Part shown: positions 48,957-62,749 of the stretch, piece after piece
Numbering within the stretch: position 1 is the first letter of the stretch
How the letters are laid out: each line of letters starts with the position of its first letter
IMG/VR virus record: IMGVR_UViG_3300045988_029816
Source of the DNA: a virus
Direction: 5' to 3' (one strand)
Length of the DNA stretch: 64,000 nucleotides
Translations under genes and position numbers: made by a program
The notes under the pieces: generated by a model
Databases searched by the model: none
What the model saw: the letters and a program-made list of their open reading frames with translations, nothing else
Told to the model about the DNA's origin: nothing

Positions 48957-49550
48957 TTATGCTATCTTATCAGCTGGTTTAGAATCTGCCTTCTGACGCT
49001 CGTAGTCTGCAATGATCTTCTCGTTTGCTGCAATGGCAGACAAACACTGAGCCTTAGCCTTATTAGCCTGCTCAATAATTGCATCAAGGCGAGCGATCTC
49101 ACCACGGTTAAGATCGTTAAGAATGCCACCCAAATCCTTAGGATCTGAGAACACAGCCTTAGAGTTCTTGTCCTTAAGAGCGTTCTGAACTGCCTCCTCT
49201 GTGGTCTCACCAAACTTGGTGCTGTTCTCACCGAGAGGGATATCAATCTGGTGCTCGGTGCCCTCATTGAGACGGCAAACGACATCACCGATTGCATTCT
49301 GCTTGGTTGCCATAGACTCAATCGTAATATAACCGATCACAAAACGGCGAGGTGAACGATTGAGCACAAGGTTTACATTGGAGCTCTGCTTAGCCTGCTC
49401 CAAAACCTTGTCATGGTCTGGGTTGAATAAACGGGTCTGAGGAGTAAATACGTCCTGACCAAACATTTTTGCACCGAGCATGCTCAGTGGGGTACGATTT
49501 GACTTAATAGTTGTTTCCACGATGTTTACATTAATTTCTGACATAATCAT
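48957..49550 (-). CDS. Hypothetical protein (197 aa)
   Basis: Intact ORF. It is the first gene after the 2.1 kb ORF-free block. A palindrome and a family-A hairpin lie upstream. Confidence 0.6.
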   Translation of the reverse strand: MIMSEINVNIVETTIKSNRTPLSMLGAKMFGQDVFTPQTRLFNPDHDKVLEQAKQSSNVNLVLNRSPRRFVIGYITIESMATKQNAIGDVVCRLNEGTEHQIDIPLGENSTKFGETTEEAVQNALKDKNSKAVFSDPKDLGGILNDLNRGEIARLDAIIEQANKAKAQCLSAIAANEKIIADYERQKADSKPADKIA

Positions 49551-49560
49551 ATCCTTTTTG

Positions 49561-49587
49561 ATATCGTTATTGATTAACTAACGATAT
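49561..49587. promoter_or_regulatory. Perfect 9-bp inverted repeat (ATATCGTTA-N9-TAACGATAT) 10 nt upstream of the 48957..49550 start codon; operator or leader hairpin
   Basis: Read directly from the sequence. Confidence 0.5.
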
Positions 49588-49644
49588 GATTGAAAAATAT
49601 GGTGTATTTTGGCTACACCTTTGCCGTTGTTTATTGAATAAAGC

Positions 49645-49669
49645 AACGCTGATACGAAGATACTCGGTT
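49645..49669 (-). repeat. Family-A hairpin copy 0 (conserved loop GATACGAAGATACT on +)
   Basis: The core is at 49651-49664. Flanks AACGC/CGGTT pair imperfectly. It lies about 100 nt upstream of the ATG at 49550. Confidence 0.55.
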
Positions 49670-51071
49670 ACTACTTTGCGTACTTAGTTTTCTAAAGGAA
49701 GTTCTACTATTGTAGACGCTTTATCTAGACTTAGCTGCACTTTCTCTATTACGACAATAGGATAATAGGCTTGCAGCAGGAATTGCATACGTATGATACA
49801 ATTAGCATTTACTGGTTTATCCAGGCCCATCGTCTAAAGCTTTGAATGCTTCCTTTGCATAATCAAATGCTGAACTGTTTTCTGCTATTTTGTTCACGTT
49901 TTTTCTAACTTAACTATTCTAATTTTCGTTGGTGAAATTTTGCATAGCAACTAACACTCATAGAATCTTAGAATTTTCTATAACCCACGAAAATATGTAG
50001 AATCTCGGTCGTATTTCCCTTACTATACTTACAAGATCTTCCTACAGGTTGTCGATTAAACGCAGATTTCCTCGGCTAATAAGTTTTAAAAGCGCCTAAC
50101 TTATCGAAATGGCTCCTTACTGCGGTACTCGGCTTATGGCATGTACCCAGCGGTTGGTTATCGGAATGTCTTAGGATCAAACCCATCACAGACTTTACGG
50201 CTTTTTACATCTTTGCTGATGTTTGCAATTTTTCTGTACCGGTATTACTACCTCCTATTTATAGTGCACGAATATTGGGAATTCAACCCATACATTTCAT
50301 CTTGTCACCCACTTATAACGTAATATACATGTATAGAGACAGTATACACATATAATATACACAGTCGTTTTACAACATAGATATAAGCTGCCCATCAATT
50401 TCCTGTATTGCTTCGAACCTTTATGTTTACATATACTGTTGCGCAGTATACTTTAGCATGGTTGGCATATCGGTTGGCACTCGATTTCTTCACCTCAAGC
50501 TCTTACTTACAACGTAAGATTCACTCTATGAAGGGACATCAATTTTTGTTAAACATGTTATCTTTTAAACTTTCTAGGTTTTCATAATTTATATCTTTTG
50601 CATACAACATACGCATACATAATATACCAGCTTACTACTCTGTAGAGACTATGTAATATTGTATATCATGGTGCAAATAAACTATTAGTCTAGATCGTTT
50701 TGGATGAAAGTGGAGGTCAAATGGTCCTGGATGGACATATCTCGAATCAACTTTCTACCTGCTTTGCTATTTCTTATTCTAGGATAGCTCTCCATCAATT
50801 TTCTTTGACTGTAACGGAGTCATCGATCATAGTCTCATGAACGATTTAATTTTCATGGAAATTGGCTGTAAGTTCGGATTGCCTAACATCCTAATAATAC
50901 AACTGGAATAGATTTTCACCGCGATCTTCACCCGCGTACGATACTCCCGTAGAGCTTCGATTAAGGGGCTGCCCAACCCTTGCGCTTGTTTTACTTTTAT
51001 ATACCGCATAAACAAGAAAAGCCTGGCGGTCGCAATCAGACACTTCTACCCCATCCCTGGCACCCCTTCAA

Positions 51072-51096
51072 CGGAGTTGTACTGAATCGAACAGTA
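51072..51096 (-). pseudogene. Orphan T-arm/acceptor-like module inside the ORF-free block
   Basis: In + it reads GGAGTTG-TACTG-AATCGAA-CAGTA. In - sense this is TACTG-TTCGATT-CAGTA-CAACTCC. The upstream sequence gives only a 5/7 acceptor match and no D arm. Confidence 0.35.
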
Positions 51097-51706
51097 AGGT
51101 TTTGGTATAGTCAGCAAACTCATTTAGTTTACTCTGTGTGGTATTACTCCCACAGTATTGATGCAGTTTTTCGGCCTTTATACTAGCTTTGGACACTAGA
51201 AACACTACCTACGGCTTAATAATACTTCTATATTGTTTGGGATATCCTCGGTTCTTCCAGCACCATGCACCATACCATGTATGCAATTCTGTTCACCTAC
51301 TGGGGACCAATATAGTTCATCTCGTGTAACGTTTGTATATGCTTAGTATTATCACATATAATTACGATACGGTTCATTATGCCCTTCTTGGGACTTATGC
51401 GTTTTTAGATTATACAGCCTCATCCAGCTTGTCTCCAGACGGTTCTCACAAGTCCAGCTGTATAATCTATAGGAGCTGATACAACGCTTCTCCTACCTAT
51501 ATCAAACTGTTTCAATGTTTGATACATTTCATCCTACCTTTTGAGTGATCTCGCCCTGCAAGACAGAGTTAACATATTCTCGGATCAAGTTTAATTTATT
51601 GAGTTTTTCTTCTAGCTCCTTCGCGAGGGATGTTCCAGAATAGTACGTAGACTAATGGGATCTACCATATGTACTTACCCAATTATAGTGTATAGGGTTC
51701 TTATGT

Positions 51707-52108
51707 TTACTTATGCACATTGGAGGCGATTTGAATATAATCATTGAGCTCTCCCTTACGAATGGTAGAGTTGTGATTAGTGGAGTCGACCTTTTCTCCA
51801 GGTTCCATAATATACAGAAGTGGTACATACGACGTATCTGTCTTCTTAATTACGGTGCGTTTAACAATTACCTTTGCAGGTAACTGTTTATGGTTACAAG
51901 GTACAGGCTTTTCTACCCTAACGGTATCATGCACTGTATCAGGATTAGCACGATTCACTTGACCAAACAAATGGTCCATTGGTTGCTGTACAGTAGATGC
52001 TGCTACTGTCTGCACTGTCGTTGGAAGGGGAACATTCTTAAGATCGGCAATATTCATGCCAATAGTAAGGAATGCTGCTCCTAACAACGTGATTACTAAT
52101 TTTTTCAT
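51707..52108 (-). CDS. Secreted/exported small protein (signal peptide)
   Basis: The N-terminus is MKKLVITLLGAAFLTIGMNIA. The 133-aa ORF is intact. Confidence 0.6.
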   Translation of the reverse strand: MKKLVITLLGAAFLTIGMNIADLKNVPLPTTVQTVAASTVQQPMDHLFGQVNRANPDTVHDTVRVEKPVPCNHKQLPAKVIVKRTVIKKTDTSYVPLLYIMEPGEKVDSTNHNSTIRKGELNDYIQIASNVHK

Positions 52109-52209
52109 ACTTTGATAGTTAAATTATTTTCGTTCACTTTGCCATTGGATGTCAAAGGCTCTTTTAATACGACCAACTAGTTGTGAACCAGTTCTCTTAA
52201 TTGGCCGTA

Positions 52210-53721
52210 TTATTTTTTTACTTGAGCCTTGGCCTTACCTTTGGCTTCCTTTTTCTTATTCTCAGTTGCCTTCTTATCAGCTGCTTCCTTAGCAGCCTTG
52301 GCAACAGCCTCTTCCTCAGCCTTGATTTCCTCATCGGTCTTGAACTCCAAGTCGATGATATTCTCCTTGGCATAACCTACGAGCGGATCAGAAGGATTAC
52401 GGAACAGGTTAGAGATGATACCAGCATGCTGCGTAGCGTTATCAAGCATTGAGTCAGACTTAACCTTAGCCATCATCTCTGGAGTAACGTCGCGATAATA
52501 TGCACGCTTAATGGCGATAACAGTCTTCTTTGCAAAGTTGTTACCCTCCAAGAAGTTCTTCTTCAAGTTCTCAACGAACTCGCCTGGAGCCGCAAGAACC
52601 GCTGCAGTAGCCTTATCGGCGAATGCGATGTTCTTGTTAGCGGCATCAATGTGCTCCTTGACACGATCCTTTTCTGGCAGCTTGTTCTCTGCCTCGAGCA
52701 AGATTTTACCCTTTGAGCGAATATCGTCTGCACCAATGATTACGAGGCACTTTACAGCGTCTGCAATCTGATCATCGGTATACTTGCATACGCCGGTGTT
52801 CTTGTCAGTAGAATGGTCGCGAAGCTCACAGAACGCAGATACAGGAGATCCTGACGTAGCGGTAACATTGAAGAAGTGAGCACCAATTCCATAAGTAAGC
52901 GTTCCGACACGACCCGTAAGCTCAACAATCTTGCGAAACGTATCATGGAAGTTCATGTTTTTGAGGCGCTCAAGGTCATTCTTTGCAGAAGCAAGAGCCT
53001 TTTCAGCGTTCTCTTTGTACTTCTTGTCTTTTGTGTTCTTGAGCGTCTTCTCAGCAGAATCGATAGCATGCTTAGCTTCAATAGAGCGATATGACTTATA
53101 GAAGTTCACACACTGCATGATGCTATCCATCAGCTTAGAATCACGGTTCATAGCTAAGAAGCCAGACAAAGCTTCCTTGAGCTCTTCTTCGTCTTTGATC
53201 TTTGTAGGATCAAAAACCTTACCTGCTGTTGCAGCACGAGCCTTAGCATCCTTGTCAAGACTCTTTGCTGTCTCTTCTGATACTGTTACAGCTGAAGCTG
53301 TAACTTCAATTGCTTCGGCATCGTCTTTTGAAGGCAAGAGCTTTGTGTCATCAAAGCTTACACCAATCTCCTTCAAAGCTTCAGTAAGCTCTGGGAGCGC
53401 AGACTTACGGATTACAACAGCGAAATCGCTGGTACCATACTTGACCTCATTACATACACATACTGCGATGCCGAGGGCATTAATATGGTTGAGTTTGTCG
53501 ATAGTTCCCTGCGGGAAGCCAGTGTGCTCAGCAGCTTTCTCATCCAAGAAGAAACGATCGTGAGCCATCTTCAACAAATCTACCTGGTGATTACGATCCA
53601 TGCTTGACCCACCTGTTGTTGTGAGCATAGCTGCAGCCTCAACAGCTGCATCTGCATTGTTACCACCATTGTTGTTATTCTGAGCAACTTTTACATTGCC
53701 CTTTCCATTCTTTTTTGCCAT
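52210..53721 (-). CDS. Hypothetical 503-aa protein with N-terminal Asn/Gly-rich and C-terminal Lys/Ala/Glu-rich tails
   Basis: Intact ORF. It shares a nearly identical ~45-nt upstream leader with gene 56527..57021. It begins MAKKNGKG and ends ...KKKEAKGKAKAQVKK. Confidence 0.65.
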   Translation of the reverse strand: MAKKNGKGNVKVAQNNNNGGNNADAAVEAAAMLTTTGGSSMDRNHQVDLLKMAHDRFFLDEKAAEHTGFPQGTIDKLNHINALGIAVCVCNEVKYGTSDFAVVIRKSALPELTEALKEIGVSFDDTKLLPSKDDAEAIEVTASAVTVSEETAKSLDKDAKARAATAGKVFDPTKIKDEEELKEALSGFLAMNRDSKLMDSIMQCVNFYKSYRSIEAKHAIDSAEKTLKNTKDKKYKENAEKALASAKNDLERLKNMNFHDTFRKIVELTGRVGTLTYGIGAHFFNVTATSGSPVSAFCELRDHSTDKNTGVCKYTDDQIADAVKCLVIIGADDIRSKGKILLEAENKLPEKDRVKEHIDAANKNIAFADKATAAVLAAPGEFVENLKKNFLEGNNFAKKTVIAIKRAYYRDVTPEMMAKVKSDSMLDNATQHAGIISNLFRNPSDPLVGYAKENIIDLEFKTDEEIKAEEEAVAKAAKEAADKKATENKKKEAKGKAKAQVKK

Positions 53722-54188: not shown

Positions 54189-54746
54189 TTAAACTTTTAA
54201 GTTATTTTTAATTTTCCTACGAGTGCGGCTTAGTGCAGCTTTTATAGTGCCTGTAGGAATTTTCAGCACTTTGCTAATTTCATCAACGGTAAGATCTTCT
54301 ACGTAAAATAGATTAAAAATCTTCTGTGTCTTCTTTGGGAGCTTTTCAAACTCCTTTAGAAGAGATTCATACTCAAGAAGATTGACAAGATCTTCTTCTT
54401 CTGAAGAATTAGTTAATTCTACAGGTAGTCGGCCTGTATCTTCTCCTAACTCCATGGATTTCTCCTTTACTTTTCGTAGATAATCTATAGCTGTTCGATT
54501 AGCTATAATTCTCAGCCATCCGCCAAAAGACGAATAATCTGTGAATGTCGAGAGTTTTTGGTGAACCTTAAGAAATACAACATTTGTAAGATCTTTAGCT
54601 TCATCCATGTCATTCACGTAACAAAAGAGCACGTTGTCAACGAACTCTTTGTAACGGTTAAACAATTTATTAAACGCTAGCTCATTTCCCTTTTGAGCTT
54701 CTTTTATGGTCTCAATCTCAGATTGAGTGATACGCTGATACTCCAT
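54189..54746 (-). CDS. ECF-type sigma-70 family RNA polymerase sigma factor
   Basis: Region 2 is 'AFNKLFNRYKEFVDNVLFCYVNDMDEAKDLTNVVFLKVHQKLSTF...FGGWLRIIANRTAIDYLRK'. Region 4 is 'LPKKTQKIFNLFYVEDLTVDEISKVLKIPTGTIKAALSRTRRKIKNNL'. Confidence 0.85.
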   Translation of the reverse strand: MEYQRITQSEIETIKEAQKGNELAFNKLFNRYKEFVDNVLFCYVNDMDEAKDLTNVVFLKVHQKLSTFTDYSSFGGWLRIIANRTAIDYLRKVKEKSMELGEDTGRLPVELTNSSEEEDLVNLLEYESLLKEFEKLPKKTQKIFNLFYVEDLTVDEISKVLKIPTGTIKAALSRTRRKIKNNLKV

Positions 54747-55726: not shown

Positions 55727-55735
55727 AACTAATAG

Positions 55736-55795
55736 GAAGAAGCTAGGGAGTCGAACCCTAATCCTCGGGTGTGTAGCCCAAAGAACCAACTTCTT
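55736..55795 (-). tRNA. Truncated (D-arm-less, ~60 nt) tRNA-like element; anticodon-loop CTACACA; function unclear
   Basis: In - sense it reads AAGAAGT-TGGTTCT-TTGGG-CTACACA-CCCGA-GGAT-TAGGG-TTCGACT-CCCTA-GCTTCTT-C. It has a 7-bp acceptor (one G-U), a 5-bp anticodon stem and a canonical T arm. Only 7 nt stand in place of the D arm. Confidence 0.4.
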
Positions 55796-56009
55796 CTTCT
55801 CTCCACTTTGGTAGGAAACACCTAGACTAAACTTACGCTACGTTAGTATAGTCTACAATGTTATTTACATTGCCGTTTAATTTATAGTATAGTGCTTAAT
55901 GTATTTATCTCCTCTGCCTGTCAAAACCAAACACGCCCGTGTAGGAAGTTTTACAACATTCCTAGGTTGTCCAAATGGAATCTACACAATAGCGTAGAGG
56001 ATGCTCCGT

Positions 56010-56034
56010 GGACGTGAGGGGAGTCGAACCCCTG
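56010..56034 (-). pseudogene. Orphan T-arm plus 3' acceptor module
   Basis: In - sense it reads AGGGG-TTCGACT-CCCCT-CACGTCC-A. No 5' acceptor lies upstream. The only complement (GGGCGTG) lies about 70 nt downstream. Confidence 0.4.
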
Positions 56035-56220
56035 TCCAGACAGATTATTTCATACACACTGTACATTTCTTGTAAATGTTCCGATGATCAGTCAGAACAT
56101 TCGATTTAAGCCGTTTTAGGTGCGCTCTAAGACATTTTTGCGGCACTCGTGGTTAATTACTCCACTTGGTGACATACTCTGCCTCAGAGCGCTTAAAACA
56201 TGGCTAAAAATATATAGGAA

Positions 56221-61905: not shown

Positions 61906-62421
61906 ATCTATATATATTTTGATTAATAATCTATAAAAATGGTATATCTATCCTCACGAACCGATATACCTGCATGGAAATAAAACCTGTTGATAACTAA
62001 AAAATGATTTAATAAAGGTGTAGTGGTTACTGGACTTGAACCGTCGCTATGTGTGCGCTTTTATAGCCAAGTACGATACCCATATAATGAATTCGTACAT
62101 AGTATACCCTCTTGCTTCAGCAAGTGTATAATAACCACTATCCGTCTTTCCGGATCGTCATGGAGATTAGGTCTACATTTGACAGCTTGCACCCTTTGCA
62201 AATAGGCTGTAGTTACCATATCTCAGTTTTACATGTAAACCCATTCCTAGGTTAACCCTCTGTGTCCTACAAGCGACCCTCTTATAGCTTTGCAAGTACC
62301 ATAAGCACGTGTTGTAGTTCATGGGCTTGGGACCATGACTGCCACATTACTCCTACGATTTATCACGTTAGCGTAGGCGCTCCGTCATCCTGGTTTGTAT
62401 ACCGCATGAGATAACGGTTAA

Positions 62422-62449
62422 ATACAACTATCTTCACAGACCATTGTAT
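62422..62449. repeat. Family-B hairpin copy 1
   Basis: + strand: ATACAA-CTATCTTCACAGACCA-TTGTAT (6-bp stem, 16-nt loop). Confidence 0.65.
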
Positions 62450-62577
62450 TTAGGGGATAAAATGCTTATGAATAATGAATATCAGACTACAGTATGATGC
62501 AAATGTTTACCGTAGTTTCGTCTAGGTCTCATCAGTGATTATGTTAGACTCTCCCTAGCTGAGTTTAAATTAAAAAT

Positions 62578-62605
62578 GTACCACTATCTTCACAGACCAT
62601 GGTAC
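62578..62605. repeat. Family-B hairpin copy 2
   Basis: + strand: GTACCA-CTATCTTCACAGACCA-TGGTAC. The loop is identical to copy 1 and the stem is different. In - sense it is followed by ATTTTTAATTT. Confidence 0.65.
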
Positions 62606-62619
62606 ACGAAACAAATCTA

Positions 62620-62727
62620 CTATTTACCACTCTTGGCAAGAACCTCAATTGTGCAATCAATTTTATATGGAATCTTAGCGTTTTTATTTGTCTTTCCAGA
62701 TGTTAATGCTTGTTTATACTCTTGCAT
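62620..62727 (-). CDS. Possible 35-aa ORF ending TAG TAG
   Basis: Hand translation gives MQEYKQALTSGKTNKNAKIPYKIDCTIEVLAKSGK*. It starts 23 nt after the upstream TAA. Confidence 0.25.
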   Translation of the reverse strand: MQEYKQALTSGKTNKNAKIPYKIDCTIEVLAKSGK

Positions 62728-62749
62728 ATTGAGTTGTGCTGCTATACAT

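What the first reader, a model, noticed from the sequence alone, without database searches (positions are those of the whole stretch)
49551..51706. A 2.16 kb ORF-free block in the middle of an otherwise gene-dense early operon
Flanking genes are separated by 0-300 nt, yet no credible ORF exists here on either strand. The three 60-68 aa track ORFs use GC-rich codons atypical of this phage and lack the TTATCAAAAT leader. Read-through of TAG does not rescue long frames; the best stretch I found is about 58 codons with no start. Parts of the block are clearly GC-richer, for example 50930-51070. The block contains a canonical T-arm-like hairpin (TACTG-TTCGATT-CAGTA, 51080-96). It ends with a family-A hairpin and a perfect palindrome just before the next gene. 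Candidate explanations are one or more large structured ncRNAs, a decayed tRNA or gene island, or a replication or packaging region.
Basis: seen in the sequence. Interest (0 to 1): 0.7.

Follow-up and report, generated by a model that had tools for sequence, protein, structure and literature searches.

The report
Giant structured RNA gene in crAss-like phages
The 2.1 kb "empty" stretch is most likely a gene for a very large folded non-coding RNA that has no known relative, and it sits at the same genome position across a whole family (Suoliviridae) of abundant gut phages.

Summary
Window 49551-51706 has no credible ORF under the standard code or with TAG, TGA or TAA read as sense. It is not junk. 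Among 33 close relatives it varies as little as first and second codon positions of the flanking genes, yet it shows no codon periodicity in any 150-nt window. Homologous 2.0-2.3 kb blocks occur in more than 100 independent crAss-like contigs, forming 14 lineages more than 35% divergent. About 30 hairpins along the whole block keep pairing through compensatory changes. In three formally tested domains, 92-94% of cells pair (25-51% in slid controls), and 98-211 cells are compensatory (8-52 in controls). Invariant G·U pairs and a G:U excess place the folded strand on the minus strand, co-directional with the flanking genes. A terminator-like hairpin ends the block. The same syntenic ~2 kb gap exists in all five Suoliviridae subfamilies, and a covariance model of the 5' domain finds it in Loutivirinae and Boorivirinae. 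Rfam, ARAGORN and the literature searches found no match. Best reading: one ~2.08 kb structured ncRNA of a new class. Transcription, unity of the transcript and function are inferred, not shown.

The parts
49592..51674 (-). Proposed extent of the giant structured ncRNA (about 2083 nt), from the first conserved 5' hairpin to the U-tract after the terminator-like hairpin.
   Evidence: Conserved helices with covariation run from 51665 to 49734. No ORF is present and no codon periodicity. Only one terminator-like site lies on the minus strand in 49300-52300. The ends are inferred, not mapped.
51643..51674 (-). 5' nested hairpin GUAC-AUAUG-GUAGA-[UCCCAUUAG]-UCUAC-GUAC. The loop consensus is YCNCAUUAR.
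   Evidence: It is conserved in position and shape in nearly all lineages, with co-varying stems. In lineage L131 the same place holds a real tRNA-Met(CAU), 30 nt before helix P1.
51470..51590 (-). 5' domain, modelled as R1. P1 is 51588-51582 with 51534-51528. P2 is 51568-51564 with 51558-51554; its loop UCUUG could pair with CGAGA at 51553-51549 as a pseudoknot candidate. P3 is 51523-51517 with 51507-51501. P4 is 51495-51490 with 51475-51470. Invariant stretches are GAGAAUAUGU and CAAAAGGUAGGAUG.
   Evidence: Sources: alignment A5, model R1 and alignment A6. 91.9% of cells are paired, 19 of 21 pairs have compensatory changes, and there are 165 compensatory cells against 11-30 in slid controls. 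R1 hits other subfamilies.
51429..51451 (-). Hairpin P5 (UUGU/ACAA) that closes the near-invariant 15-nt loop GAGAACCGUCUGGAG.
   Evidence: Helix 51451-51448 with 51432-51429 shows 5, 4, 5 and 3 pair types. The loop motif is also found in cr6_1 and cr50_1.
51337..51359 (-). The hairpin with the strongest covariation in the block (AUAUGU/GCAUAU).
   Evidence: Each pair shows 3-5 pair types. There are 249 Watson-Crick, 28 G:U and 0 A:C cells. Mean pair probability is 0.69 over 16 independently folded lineages.
50915..51215 (-). Central, GC-richer domain. It holds a hairpin with AGUG/GAA internal loops (a sarcin-ricin-like look), the T-arm-like hairpin 51096-51080, invariant GACCGCCAGGC...GCGGUAUAUAAAAG, and invariant G·U pairs.
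   Evidence: In alignment A2, 35 pairs are 93.5% paired against 35-44% in slid controls. There are 211 compensatory cells against 34-52, and the covariation score is 0.458 against about 0.10.
50254..50548 (-). Core with the most conserved sequence: AAAAUUGAUGUCCC, GAGUGCCAACCG, UGAUGGGCAGC, GUGGGUGACAAG and UUCGUGCACUAUAAA. A candidate 230-nt-span helix pairs UGUCCCY with GGG(U)GACA.
   Evidence: Invariant blocks across 47 representatives. In alignment A3, hairpins covary; the long helix is invariant apart from C/U opposite G, so it is consistent but unproven.
49730..49880 (-). 3' domain. Hairpin 49870-49857; helix 49777-49772 with 49739-49734; conserved GAUGGGC.
   Evidence: In alignment A7, 14 of 15 pairs have compensatory changes and 93.5% of cells pair against 25-49% in slid controls. 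There are 98 compensatory cells against 8-33.
49592..49619 (-). Terminator-like hairpin GGUGUAGCCAAAAUACACC followed by AUAUUUUUC. This is the proposed 3' end.
   Evidence: It is the only minus-strand terminator-like site in 49300-52300. A crude scan flags a hairpin followed by a U-run upstream of the palindrome in 19 of 26 lineages, mostly 10-100 nt before it; a few of these hairpins are weak.
49548..49589 (-). Highly conserved palindrome plus SD/AUG region of the downstream gene. The 5' strand AUAUCG can pair either with CGAUAU (hairpin) or with GGAUAUG, which covers the SD-to-start region. It probably belongs to the next gene's control region, not to the RNA.
   Evidence: Near-invariant TCGTTnGTnnATCAAnnACGATnTCAAAAAGGA. 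Both pairings are predicted and covary.
51707..52108 (-). Upstream flanking gene: a small, fast-evolving protein whose N-terminus looks like a signal peptide or membrane segment.
   Evidence: Translations are. The excess of variation at third codon positions is weak but present. No family match.
48957..49550 (-). Downstream flanking gene: a 195-197 aa protein of unknown function, the first of two tandem ~190-aa genes that follow the RNA in all subfamilies.
   Evidence: Strong codon periodicity. Only 26-36% identical between genera. No family or PDB match. Synteny is shown.

Best explanation
The block is a gene for one very large (about 2.08 kb), highly structured non-coding RNA.

How it is made (inferred). 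It is read from the minus strand, in the same direction as the surrounding early/middle genes. It starts near a conserved nested hairpin at about 51674. It ends at an intrinsic-terminator-like hairpin and U-tract at about 49592, some 45 nt before the next gene.

What it looks like. It folds into several domains built from about 30 or more conserved helices. Many hairpin loops and junction strands are invariant in sequence, which is typical of RNAs that depend on tertiary contacts or on bound partners.

Where it occurs. It is inherited vertically at a fixed position: sigma factor, ~125-aa gene, ~500-aa gene, ~135-aa gene, RNA, then two ~190-aa genes. This order holds throughout the family Suoliviridae ('delta' crAss-like phages).

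Shown: absence of coding capacity; purifying selection; conserved base-paired structure with a strand bias; family-wide synteny and 5'-domain homology.

Inferred: that it is transcribed, that it is one molecule, and its ends.

Most likely mode of action (about 0.3). It acts in trans through its three-dimensional fold, as a scaffold or RNA-protein or RNA-only assembly made early in infection. This would resemble the phage-associated 'ornate' RNAs GOLLD and ROOL. It is less likely to act by antisense pairing or by coding.
For: No ORF under any single-stop recoding.

Purifying selection without coding signal, from 33 close relatives. Block diversity is 0.043, against 0.084-0.21 at third codon positions of the flanking genes. 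The three phases in the block are equal (0.049/0.040/0.042). No 150-nt window in the block shows codon periodicity, whereas nearly every window in the clearly coding neighbours (the 503-, 197- and 182-aa genes) has p<1e-3, with weaker stretches in the 133- and 194-aa genes.

Breadth. There are 111 full-length copies, 47 clusters at 97% identity and 14 lineages more than 35% apart. Length stays at 2.0-2.3 kb. Between genera the block is 50-60% identical in DNA, while the flanking protein is only 26-36% identical.

Covariation.
- An unbiased MI/APC scan puts local canonical pairs with 3-5 pair types at the top.
- Helix scans find about 30 conserved hairpins spread from 51665 to 49548.
- Formal counts: A2 93.5% paired, 211 compensatory cells; A6 91.9%, 165 cells; A7 93.5%, 98 cells. 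Each is far above its slid controls, and 0 of 500 shuffles reach the observed value.

Strand.
- Invariant G·U pairs occur in A2 (G·U in 32 and 37 of 37 sequences, U·G in 30 of 37).
- In the 11 best-supported local hairpins there are 212 G:U cells against 61 A:C cells.

Ends. One terminator-like site lies at the 3' end. A conserved 5' hairpin marks the start.

Family-wide occurrence.
- Syntenic gaps of 1.9-2.5 kb are present in Loutivirinae, Bearivirinae, Uncouvirinae and Boorivirinae.
- Model R1 hits inside those gaps at 60.4 bits (E 4e-12) and 50.1 bits (E 1e-9), with weaker hits of 16.7 and 11.5 bits.
- Collinear nhmmer and motif hits support this.
- R1 gives no hit in 728 kb of unrelated bacterial DNA.
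Against: - There is no direct evidence of transcription, of the ends, or that the 2 kb is one molecule.
- No long-range helix linking the domains is supported by covariation. The candidates are invariant or noisy.
- The minimum free energy of a 301-nt domain is no better than shuffled sequence (z = +0.32 on the minus strand, +0.25 on the plus strand).
- The sequences were collected with a motif from the block itself, so lineages that lost the motif are under-sampled.
- Homology outside the 5' domain is weak in other subfamilies, and in Uncouvirinae only marginal.
- E-values from the shortened calibration are rough.
- G:T wobble is also tolerated in single-stranded DNA, so the strand bias alone does not prove RNA.
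- The neighbouring proteins give no functional clue.
Confidence: 0.7

Rival explanations
1. The block is a tandem cluster of several independent small or medium structured RNAs. They would be made separately or cut out of one precursor, rather than forming one 2 kb functional molecule.
For: All helices with covariation support are local, with spans under about 110 nt. No covarying long-range helix was found. Variable linkers with lineage-specific insertions separate the conserved modules. The phage's early region already carries other small RNAs: tRNAs, a tmRNA and a hammerhead.
Against: There is only one terminator-like site and no conserved internal promoter or terminator. All modules are kept, in the same order and with the same total length, in 14 lineages and five subfamilies. 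There are no internal repeats that would suggest a repeated unit. A candidate 230-nt-span helix joins two invariant motifs.
Confidence: 0.17
2. The block is a cis-acting element: a very long structured leader or 3' UTR of the operon transcript. It would control expression, stability or processing of the flanking genes and would not be a free-standing RNA.
For: It is co-directional with the flanking genes and lies between them. The conserved palindrome at its 3' side can mask the SD/AUG of the next gene in one of two alternative pairings. The terminator-like hairpin could act as an attenuator.
Against: Two kilobases with about 30 conserved helices and many invariant loops is far more than any known leader needs. 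The block is better conserved than the genes it would regulate. The switch-like element is confined to the last ~45 nt.
Confidence: 0.07
3. The block works at the DNA level, as a replication origin, packaging site or other element whose single-stranded DNA forms hairpins.
For: It is a large non-coding region in a phage whose ori and pac sites are unknown. G:T pairs are also the most tolerated mismatch in single-stranded DNA.
Against: The GC-skew sign change is at about 35.5 kb and the skew is monotonic through the block. There are no iterons, no AT-rich unwinding stretch and no tandem repeats. Known ssDNA initiation signals are about 100 nt long, not 2 kb with 30 covarying helices and invariant loops.
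Confidence: 0.03
4. The block hides coding sequence: a gene read with an unknown recoding or interrupted by introns, or a recently decayed gene.
For: The late genes of this phage do use TAG as a sense codon. Delta-group crAss-like phages carry group I introns (PMC7886860). Some database records annotate short CDSs inside the block.
Against: No long frame appears under any single-stop recoding. No 150-nt window shows codon periodicity of polymorphism. There are no Rfam intron matches even at E<=10. The flanking genes have their own stop and start codons. The gap is equally ORF-free in all lineages and subfamilies, so it is not a local decay. The annotated inner CDSs lie on the opposite strand and are not conserved.
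Confidence: 0.03

Closest known systems
GOLLD and ROOL RNAs (large 'ornate' ncRNAs of phages and prophages, shown by cryo-EM to form RNA-only multimeric cages; PMC12286853)
   Same: A large, intricately structured RNA with no ORF and with many conserved loops and junctions. It is carried by phages, its function is unknown, and it lies in a genomic neighbourhood with tRNAs and a tmRNA. In one lineage (L131) a tRNA directly abuts its 5' end.
   Different: There is no sequence or structure match to the Rfam models. It is about 2.5-3.5 times longer, by my recollection of their sizes (about 0.8 and 0.6 kb). It is restricted to Suoliviridae crAss-like phages of gut Bacteroidota. It holds a fixed syntenic position inside an early operon. 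Multimerisation was not tested.
OLE RNA (about 0.6 kb ornate RNA of extremophilic Firmicutes that works as an RNP with dedicated proteins)
   Same: A large conserved structured RNA flanked by conserved genes of unknown function that could encode partners.
   Different: No Rfam match. The host group is different and the element is phage-borne. No homologues of OLE-associated proteins are present among the neighbours: no Pfam, NCBIfam or PDB hits.
phi29 pRNA (a phage-encoded structured RNA that forms a ring on the packaging motor)
   Same: A phage-encoded, early-transcribed structural RNA that acts through its fold rather than by coding.
   Different: pRNA is about 170 nt (from my knowledge) and has an Rfam family that does not match here. 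Nothing links this RNA to packaging.
Self-splicing group I and group II introns (common in delta and zeta crAss-like phages; PMC7886860)
   Same: A large structured RNA inside a crAss-like phage genome.
   Different: No match to any intron model at E<=10. It is intergenic, lying between a stop codon and a start codon. It encodes no homing endonuclease or reverse transcriptase. It is fixed in all lineages rather than sporadic.

Membership tests
Conserved structured ncRNA (generic) | Base pairs are maintained by compensatory substitutions across diverged homologues, well above controls. | tested here: met
   A2: 93.5% paired, 211 compensatory cells against 34-52 in slid controls. A6: 91.9%, 165 against 11-30. 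A7: 93.5%, 98 against 8-33. In all three, 0 of 500 shuffles reach the observed value.
Conserved structured ncRNA (generic) | Purifying selection without a coding signature. | tested here: met
   Diversity is 0.043 with equal phases, and no window shows codon periodicity, unlike the flanking genes.
Conserved structured ncRNA (generic) | The region is transcribed as a discrete RNA. | not testable with these tools
   No transcriptome data are available. There is only indirect support: strand-biased G·U pairs and a terminator-like 3' end.
GOLLD / ROOL / OLE / HEARO and all other Rfam 15 families | A match to the family covariance model. | tested here: not met
   No match in the block at gathering thresholds. 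With permissive filters at E<=10, only two chance-level hits appear: a CRISPR-DR65 model at 23.8 bits on the plus strand, and a snoRNA model that lies outside the block.
tRNA or decayed tRNA island | A cloverleaf detectable by ARAGORN or the Rfam tRNA model. | tested here: not met
   No tRNA is found in 49551-51706. The T-arm-like hairpin is an isolated hairpin whose loop is UUAGAUU or other sequences in other genera.
Group I / group II self-splicing intron | An intron core recognised by covariance models, and flanking exons that join into one reading frame. | tested here: not met
   No intron model hit at E<=10. The upstream ORF ends with its own stop codon and the downstream ORF has its own SD and AUG.
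Ribosomal RNA or rRNA fragment | A match to the SSU or LSU covariance models. | tested here: not met
   No such match.
Protein-coding gene (including TAG/TGA/TAA recoding) | A long open frame and three-base periodicity of substitutions. | tested here: not met
   The positive controls (the clearly coding flanking genes and the TAG-recoded late genes) behave as expected.
Replication origin / terminus | A GC-skew inflection and repeated binding sites (iterons). | tested here: not met
   The skew switch is at about 35.5 kb. There are no tandem repeats and no direct-repeat families beyond chance-size 14-22 nt pairs.

The most novel reading that the evidence does not exclude
The whole ~2.08 kb is one RNA of a new class. 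By my recollection of known sizes, it would be the largest structured non-ribosomal RNA known in a phage or bacterium. It would be essential to Suoliviridae infection. It would work either as a ribozyme-like machine or as a giant RNA-only or RNA-protein assembly together with the syntenic orphan proteins: the all-alpha ~500-aa protein of novel fold upstream and the two ~190-aa proteins downstream.
Probability: 0.35. Interest if true: 0.92.

Novelty: categorically new. Interest (0 to 1): 0.85.

Why it matters
Suoliviridae (the 'delta' group) is reported as the largest group of crAss-like phages in the human gut (PMC7886860), and a 2023 review states that none has been cultured (PMC10136315). 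A ~2 kb RNA that is better conserved than its neighbouring proteins and kept at one position in every subfamily is probably central to how these phages take over their hosts, which are likely Prevotella/Segatella. If it is a single RNA, it would extend the size range of 'ornate' non-ribosomal RNAs about threefold. It would also be an obvious target for chemical probing and cryo-EM. On the practical side, it explains a recurring annotation problem: database records either leave the gap empty, extend the upstream gene through stop codons, or call spurious short CDSs inside it. The model built here also gives a sensitive RNA marker for this phage family.

Tried and rejected
Structure attempts that did not work
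- Global RNAalifold on the 47-sequence MAFFT alignment gave only a sparse structure, because variable regions align badly. A full-length consensus fold of the close relatives proposes long-range pairs that I could not confirm.
- Averaging pair probabilities of 16 independently folded lineages recovered only local hairpins.
- Long-range candidates from MI/APC (51296:50458 and 51290:50646) do not extend into helices.
- Thermodynamic stability is unremarkable.

Searches that did not work
- A first attempt at protein-alignment-based locus retrieval failed.
- A loosened DNA pattern on GTDB genomes returned almost only chance matches, confirmed as negatives by R1. The one true hit is a 101.5 kb contig binned with Segatella copri.

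Neighbouring proteins
- Neighbour proteins had no informative PHROG, Pfam, NCBIfam or PDB-sequence hits, apart from the ECF-type sigma factor two genes upstream.
- An AlphaFold model of the 503-aa neighbour is confident (pLDDT 85, pTM 0.73) and all-alpha. It has no PDB fold match: best E is 0.05 and TM is below 0.2.

Ideas considered and dropped
- A role in TAG recoding. The phage has its own suppressor tRNA(CUA).
- A CRISPR-repeat mimic. The only hit is sub-threshold and on the plus strand.
- An 11-nt tetraloop receptor. CCUAAG is not conserved.
- A faithful anticodon-loop mimic in the 5' hairpin. The position equivalent to U33 varies.

Literature
- Searches found no description of this element.
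- An automated catalogue of 29-151 nt candidate structured RNAs from IMG/VR (PMC10690425) may contain fragments of it. I could not check.
Full report
**Context.** The window is a crAss-like phage. It is 99.6% identical to NC_055899 (cr124_1, Burzaovirus faecalis; Suoliviridae, Oafivirinae) over the queried 2.45 kb. Late genes on the plus strand (1-35469) become long ORFs only if TAG is read as sense. Genes on the minus strand from about 35.5 kb onward use the standard code. The finding lies in this minus-strand early/middle region. Upstream of it are an ECF-type sigma factor (54189-54746), a 131-aa gene, a 503-aa gene and a 133-aa gene. Downstream are two ~195-aa genes.

**The observation.** The block 49551-51706 runs exactly from the stop of the 133-aa ORF to the start of the 197-aa ORF. 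The largest ORFs in it are 59-68 aa. Stop-free stretches inside it reach 90 codons under the standard code, 125 with TAG as sense, 105 with TGA as sense and 201 with TAA as sense. None comes close to spanning it. GC is higher in the middle: 0.41-0.44 against 0.33-0.36. The T-arm-like hairpin and the terminal palindrome exist, on the minus strand.

**It is conserved and non-coding.** I retrieved 33 relatives with 91-99% identity over 6 kb, using the flanking protein.
- In the clearly coding neighbours (the 503-, 197- and 182-aa genes), polymorphism is concentrated at third codon positions (0.10-0.21, against 0.004-0.057 at first and second positions). Nearly every 150-nt window there has a phase bias with p<1e-3. 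The 133- and 194-aa genes show a weaker excess (about 0.085) and have stretches without a significant signal.
- In the block, diversity is 0.043 and equal in the three phases (0.049/0.040/0.042). No window shows periodicity.
- The block is therefore constrained about as strongly as non-synonymous positions, but not as a coding sequence.
- Between genera it stays 50-60% identical in DNA and is detectable by blastn. The adjacent protein falls to 26-36% identity and is barely detectable.

**It is widespread.** A two-part motif from the block (GTGGGTGACAA N22-42 TTCGYGYACT) found 100 stretches in IMG/VR, which appears to be the output limit.
- Together with the other loci this gave 111 full-length copies, 47 clusters at 97% identity and 14 lineages more than 35% divergent.
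- The named contigs are mostly 90-105 kb phage genomes. Among the annotated GenBank records, sources are human, macaque, pig and lemur faeces and one endotracheal aspirate.
- Block length stays at 2.0-2.3 kb.
- This many independent assemblies rule out a misassembly.

**It is base-paired, and the pairing is maintained by compensatory change.** An MI/APC scan that assumes no structure ranks local pairs with 100% canonical pairing and 3-5 pair types at the top. Examples are 51104:51046 (UA 18, CG 12, AU 10, GC 7) and 51208:51174 (GC 20, AU 10, UA 9, CG 8). Helix scans and segment-wise RNAalifold find about 30 conserved hairpins spread from 51665 to 49548. Averaging independent folds of 16 lineages recovers 19 of them. 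Three domains were tested formally:

| Domain | Window coordinates | Pairs | Cells paired (slid controls) | Compensatory cells (slid controls) |
|---|---|---|---|---|
| Central | 51215-50915 | 35 | 93.5% (35-44%) | 211 (34-52) |
| 5' | 51590-51470 | 21 (19 with compensatory changes) | 91.9% (32-51%) | 165 (11-30) |
| 3' | 49880-49730 | 15 (14 with compensatory changes) | 93.5% (25-49%) | 98 (8-33) |

No shuffle out of 500 reaches the observed covariation score in any of the three. Many hairpin loops and joining strands are invariant across all 47 representatives:
- CAAAAGGUAGGAUG
- GAGAACCGUCUGG
- GCGGUAUAUAAAAG
- AAAAUUGAUGUCCC
- GAGUGCCAACCG
- UGAUGGGCAGC
- GUGGGUGACAAG
- UUCGUGCACUAUAAA

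These are listed. This pattern is typical of RNAs with dense tertiary structure or bound partners.

**Which strand.** I defined helices without favouring either wobble type. In the 11 best-supported local hairpins there are 212 G:U cells against 61 A:C cells in minus-strand orientation. The central domain has G·U pairs that are invariant or nearly so (32-37 of 37 sequences). On the plus strand these would be A·C mismatches. The folded strand is therefore the minus strand, co-directional with the neighbouring genes.

**Ends.**
- 5' end. After a variable hairpin that follows the upstream stop codon, all lineages share a nested hairpin (window 51674-51643) with loop consensus YCNCAUUAR. In lineage L131 this hairpin is replaced by a genuine tRNA-Met(CAU) that ends 30 nt before helix P1. 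This recalls the tRNA adjacency of GOLLD-type RNAs and suggests tRNA-type processing could define the 5' end there.
- 3' end. The only minus-strand terminator-like site in 49300-52300 is GGUGUAGCCAAAAUACACC followed by AUAUUUUUC (49619-49592). A crude scan flags a hairpin followed by a U-run upstream of the palindrome in 19 of 26 lineages, mostly 10-100 nt before it; a few of these hairpins are weak.
- Palindrome and SD region (49589-49548). This is almost invariant. It offers two alternative, co-varying partners for the same 5' strand, and one of them covers the SD-to-start region of the 197-aa gene. I assign it to the control region of that gene.

**Family-wide distribution.** The sigma factor let me find the syntenic region in the other four Suoliviridae subfamilies. 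Each has an unannotated gap of about the same size at the same place:

| Phage | Subfamily | Gap (nt) |
|---|---|---|
| cr53_1 | Loutivirinae | 2125 |
| cr6_1 | Bearivirinae | 2080 |
| cr118_1 | Uncouvirinae | 1920 |
| cr50_1 | Boorivirinae | 2514 |

- The covariance model of the 5' domain hits inside these gaps, on the right strand and near their 5' ends. Scores are 60.4 bits (E 4e-12) for cr53_1 and 50.1 bits (E 1e-9) for cr50_1.
- Hits are weaker for cr118_1 (16.7 bits) and cr6_1 (11.5 bits). In cr6_1 the hit is followed directly by the GAGAACCGACUGG motif.
- A profile HMM of the whole block gives collinear hits in three of the four.
- The model finds nothing in 728 kb of unrelated bacterial DNA.
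- The RNA therefore predates the split of the subfamilies. Its 5' domain is the most conserved part between subfamilies.

**What it is not.**
- Rfam 15 gives nothing in the block at gathering thresholds and only chance-level hits at E<=10. This covers GOLLD, ROOL, OLE, HEARO, introns, RNase P, rRNAs and tmRNA.
- ARAGORN finds no tRNA there.
- There are no tandem repeats and no meaningful internal repeats.
- GC skew changes sign at the late/early boundary near 35.5 kb, not in the block.
- The phage has a suppressor tRNA(CUA) elsewhere in its genome, so the RNA is not needed to explain TAG recoding.

**What remains open.**
- I could not establish long-range helices. The best candidate (UGUCCCY, 50538-50532, with GGG(U)GACA, 50310-50303) is invariant apart from C/U opposite G, so it is consistent but untestable by covariation.
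- Predicted folding energy of one domain is no better than shuffled sequence.
- 'One 2.08 kb RNA' rests on three things: the co-retention of all modules in order and total length, the single terminator, and the lack of internal signals.
- The conserved neighbours give no hint. The 503-aa protein belongs to a small family of 135 clusters. It has a confident all-alpha model with no PDB fold match. The others have no family match.
- No transcriptome data could be consulted. According to a 2023 review, no member of Suoliviridae had been cultured (PMC10136315).

**Comparison and novelty.** In kind it resembles the large 'ornate' RNAs of phages and bacteria (GOLLD, ROOL, OLE; PMC12286853). It is not a member of any of them, because the model matches were tested and not met. 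It is also about three times longer, by my recollection of their sizes. Full-text searches found no description of it. Checked sources include the comparative-genomics paper on crAss-like phages (PMC7886860), a Crassvirales review (PMC10136315) and recent preprints. Short fragments may be present in automated catalogues of 29-151 nt candidates (PMC10690425). I rate it a new RNA class. My confidence is about 0.9 that this is a conserved structured RNA element and about 0.6 that it is a single ~2 kb molecule. Its function is only conjectured.

Noticed in passing
window 62480-62565 (-), within 61906-62749: A RAGATH-1 hammerhead ribozyme (76.9 bits, against a gathering score of 56.3) sits in another ORF-poor stretch of the early region. 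No minus-strand ORF of 60 aa or more lies between 61906 and 62749.
   Followed up: partly
window 55833-56068 (-); ARAGORN 55742-56098: A phage-encoded permuted tmRNA (Rfam RF04321, 66.7 bits; tag peptide GNVNNIVDYTNVA). Similar tmRNAs are present in relatives (L117, L265). The ARAGORN 'tRNA-Cys(ACA)' at 55735-55801 overlaps it and is probably its tRNA-like part.
   Followed up: partly
window 1-35469 (+); NC_055899 47896-47967: The late genes need TAG read as sense; ORFs of up to 5207 codons appear only then. The matching suppressor tRNA(CUA) lies outside the window, at the start of the plus-strand module. RefSeq labels it tRNA-Gln and ARAGORN calls it Pyl/CUA.
   Followed up: yes
window 49548-49589 (-): A near-invariant palindrome plus SD region has two alternative, co-varying partners (CGAUAU and GGAUAUG) for one 5' strand. 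This looks like a translational or transcriptional switch in front of the 197-aa gene. Only one copy of the element is present in the window.
   Followed up: partly
L131 2925-2999 (+): In one lineage a bona fide tRNA-Met(CAU) replaces the conserved 5' hairpin of the RNA, whose loop is CNCAUUA. It ends 30 nt before helix P1.
   Followed up: partly
L002 5375-5944, L003 6029-6526; L004 4327-4833, L007 5457-5939, L006 4397-6171: The database annotations of this locus are inconsistent. In cr131_1 and cr130_1 the upstream small gene is extended through in-frame stop codons into the RNA. In cr7_1, the Bohxovirus record and Dulem virus 42, short CDSs (mostly plus-strand) are called inside the block.
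   Followed up: yes
window 52210-53721 (-): The 503-aa syntenic neighbour belongs to a small family: 135 clusters at 50% identity among 1.84 billion representatives. Its all-alpha model is confident (pLDDT 85) but has no PDB fold match. It is an orphan fold conserved next to the RNA in all subfamilies.
   Followed up: partly
L142 (JAJWOH010000001.1, 101.5 kb): A complete-length copy of this phage genome is binned in a Segatella copri MAG. One protein cluster is also labelled Prevotella sp. in UniRef. These are weak hints about the host.
   Followed up: no
window 50804-50786, 50546-50533, 50404-50386; 50394-50387 and 49833-49826: Short motifs recur inside the RNA. AAAUUGAUG occurs three times and UGAUGGGC twice, each in conserved context. 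They could be repeated binding or tertiary-contact modules.
   Followed up: no
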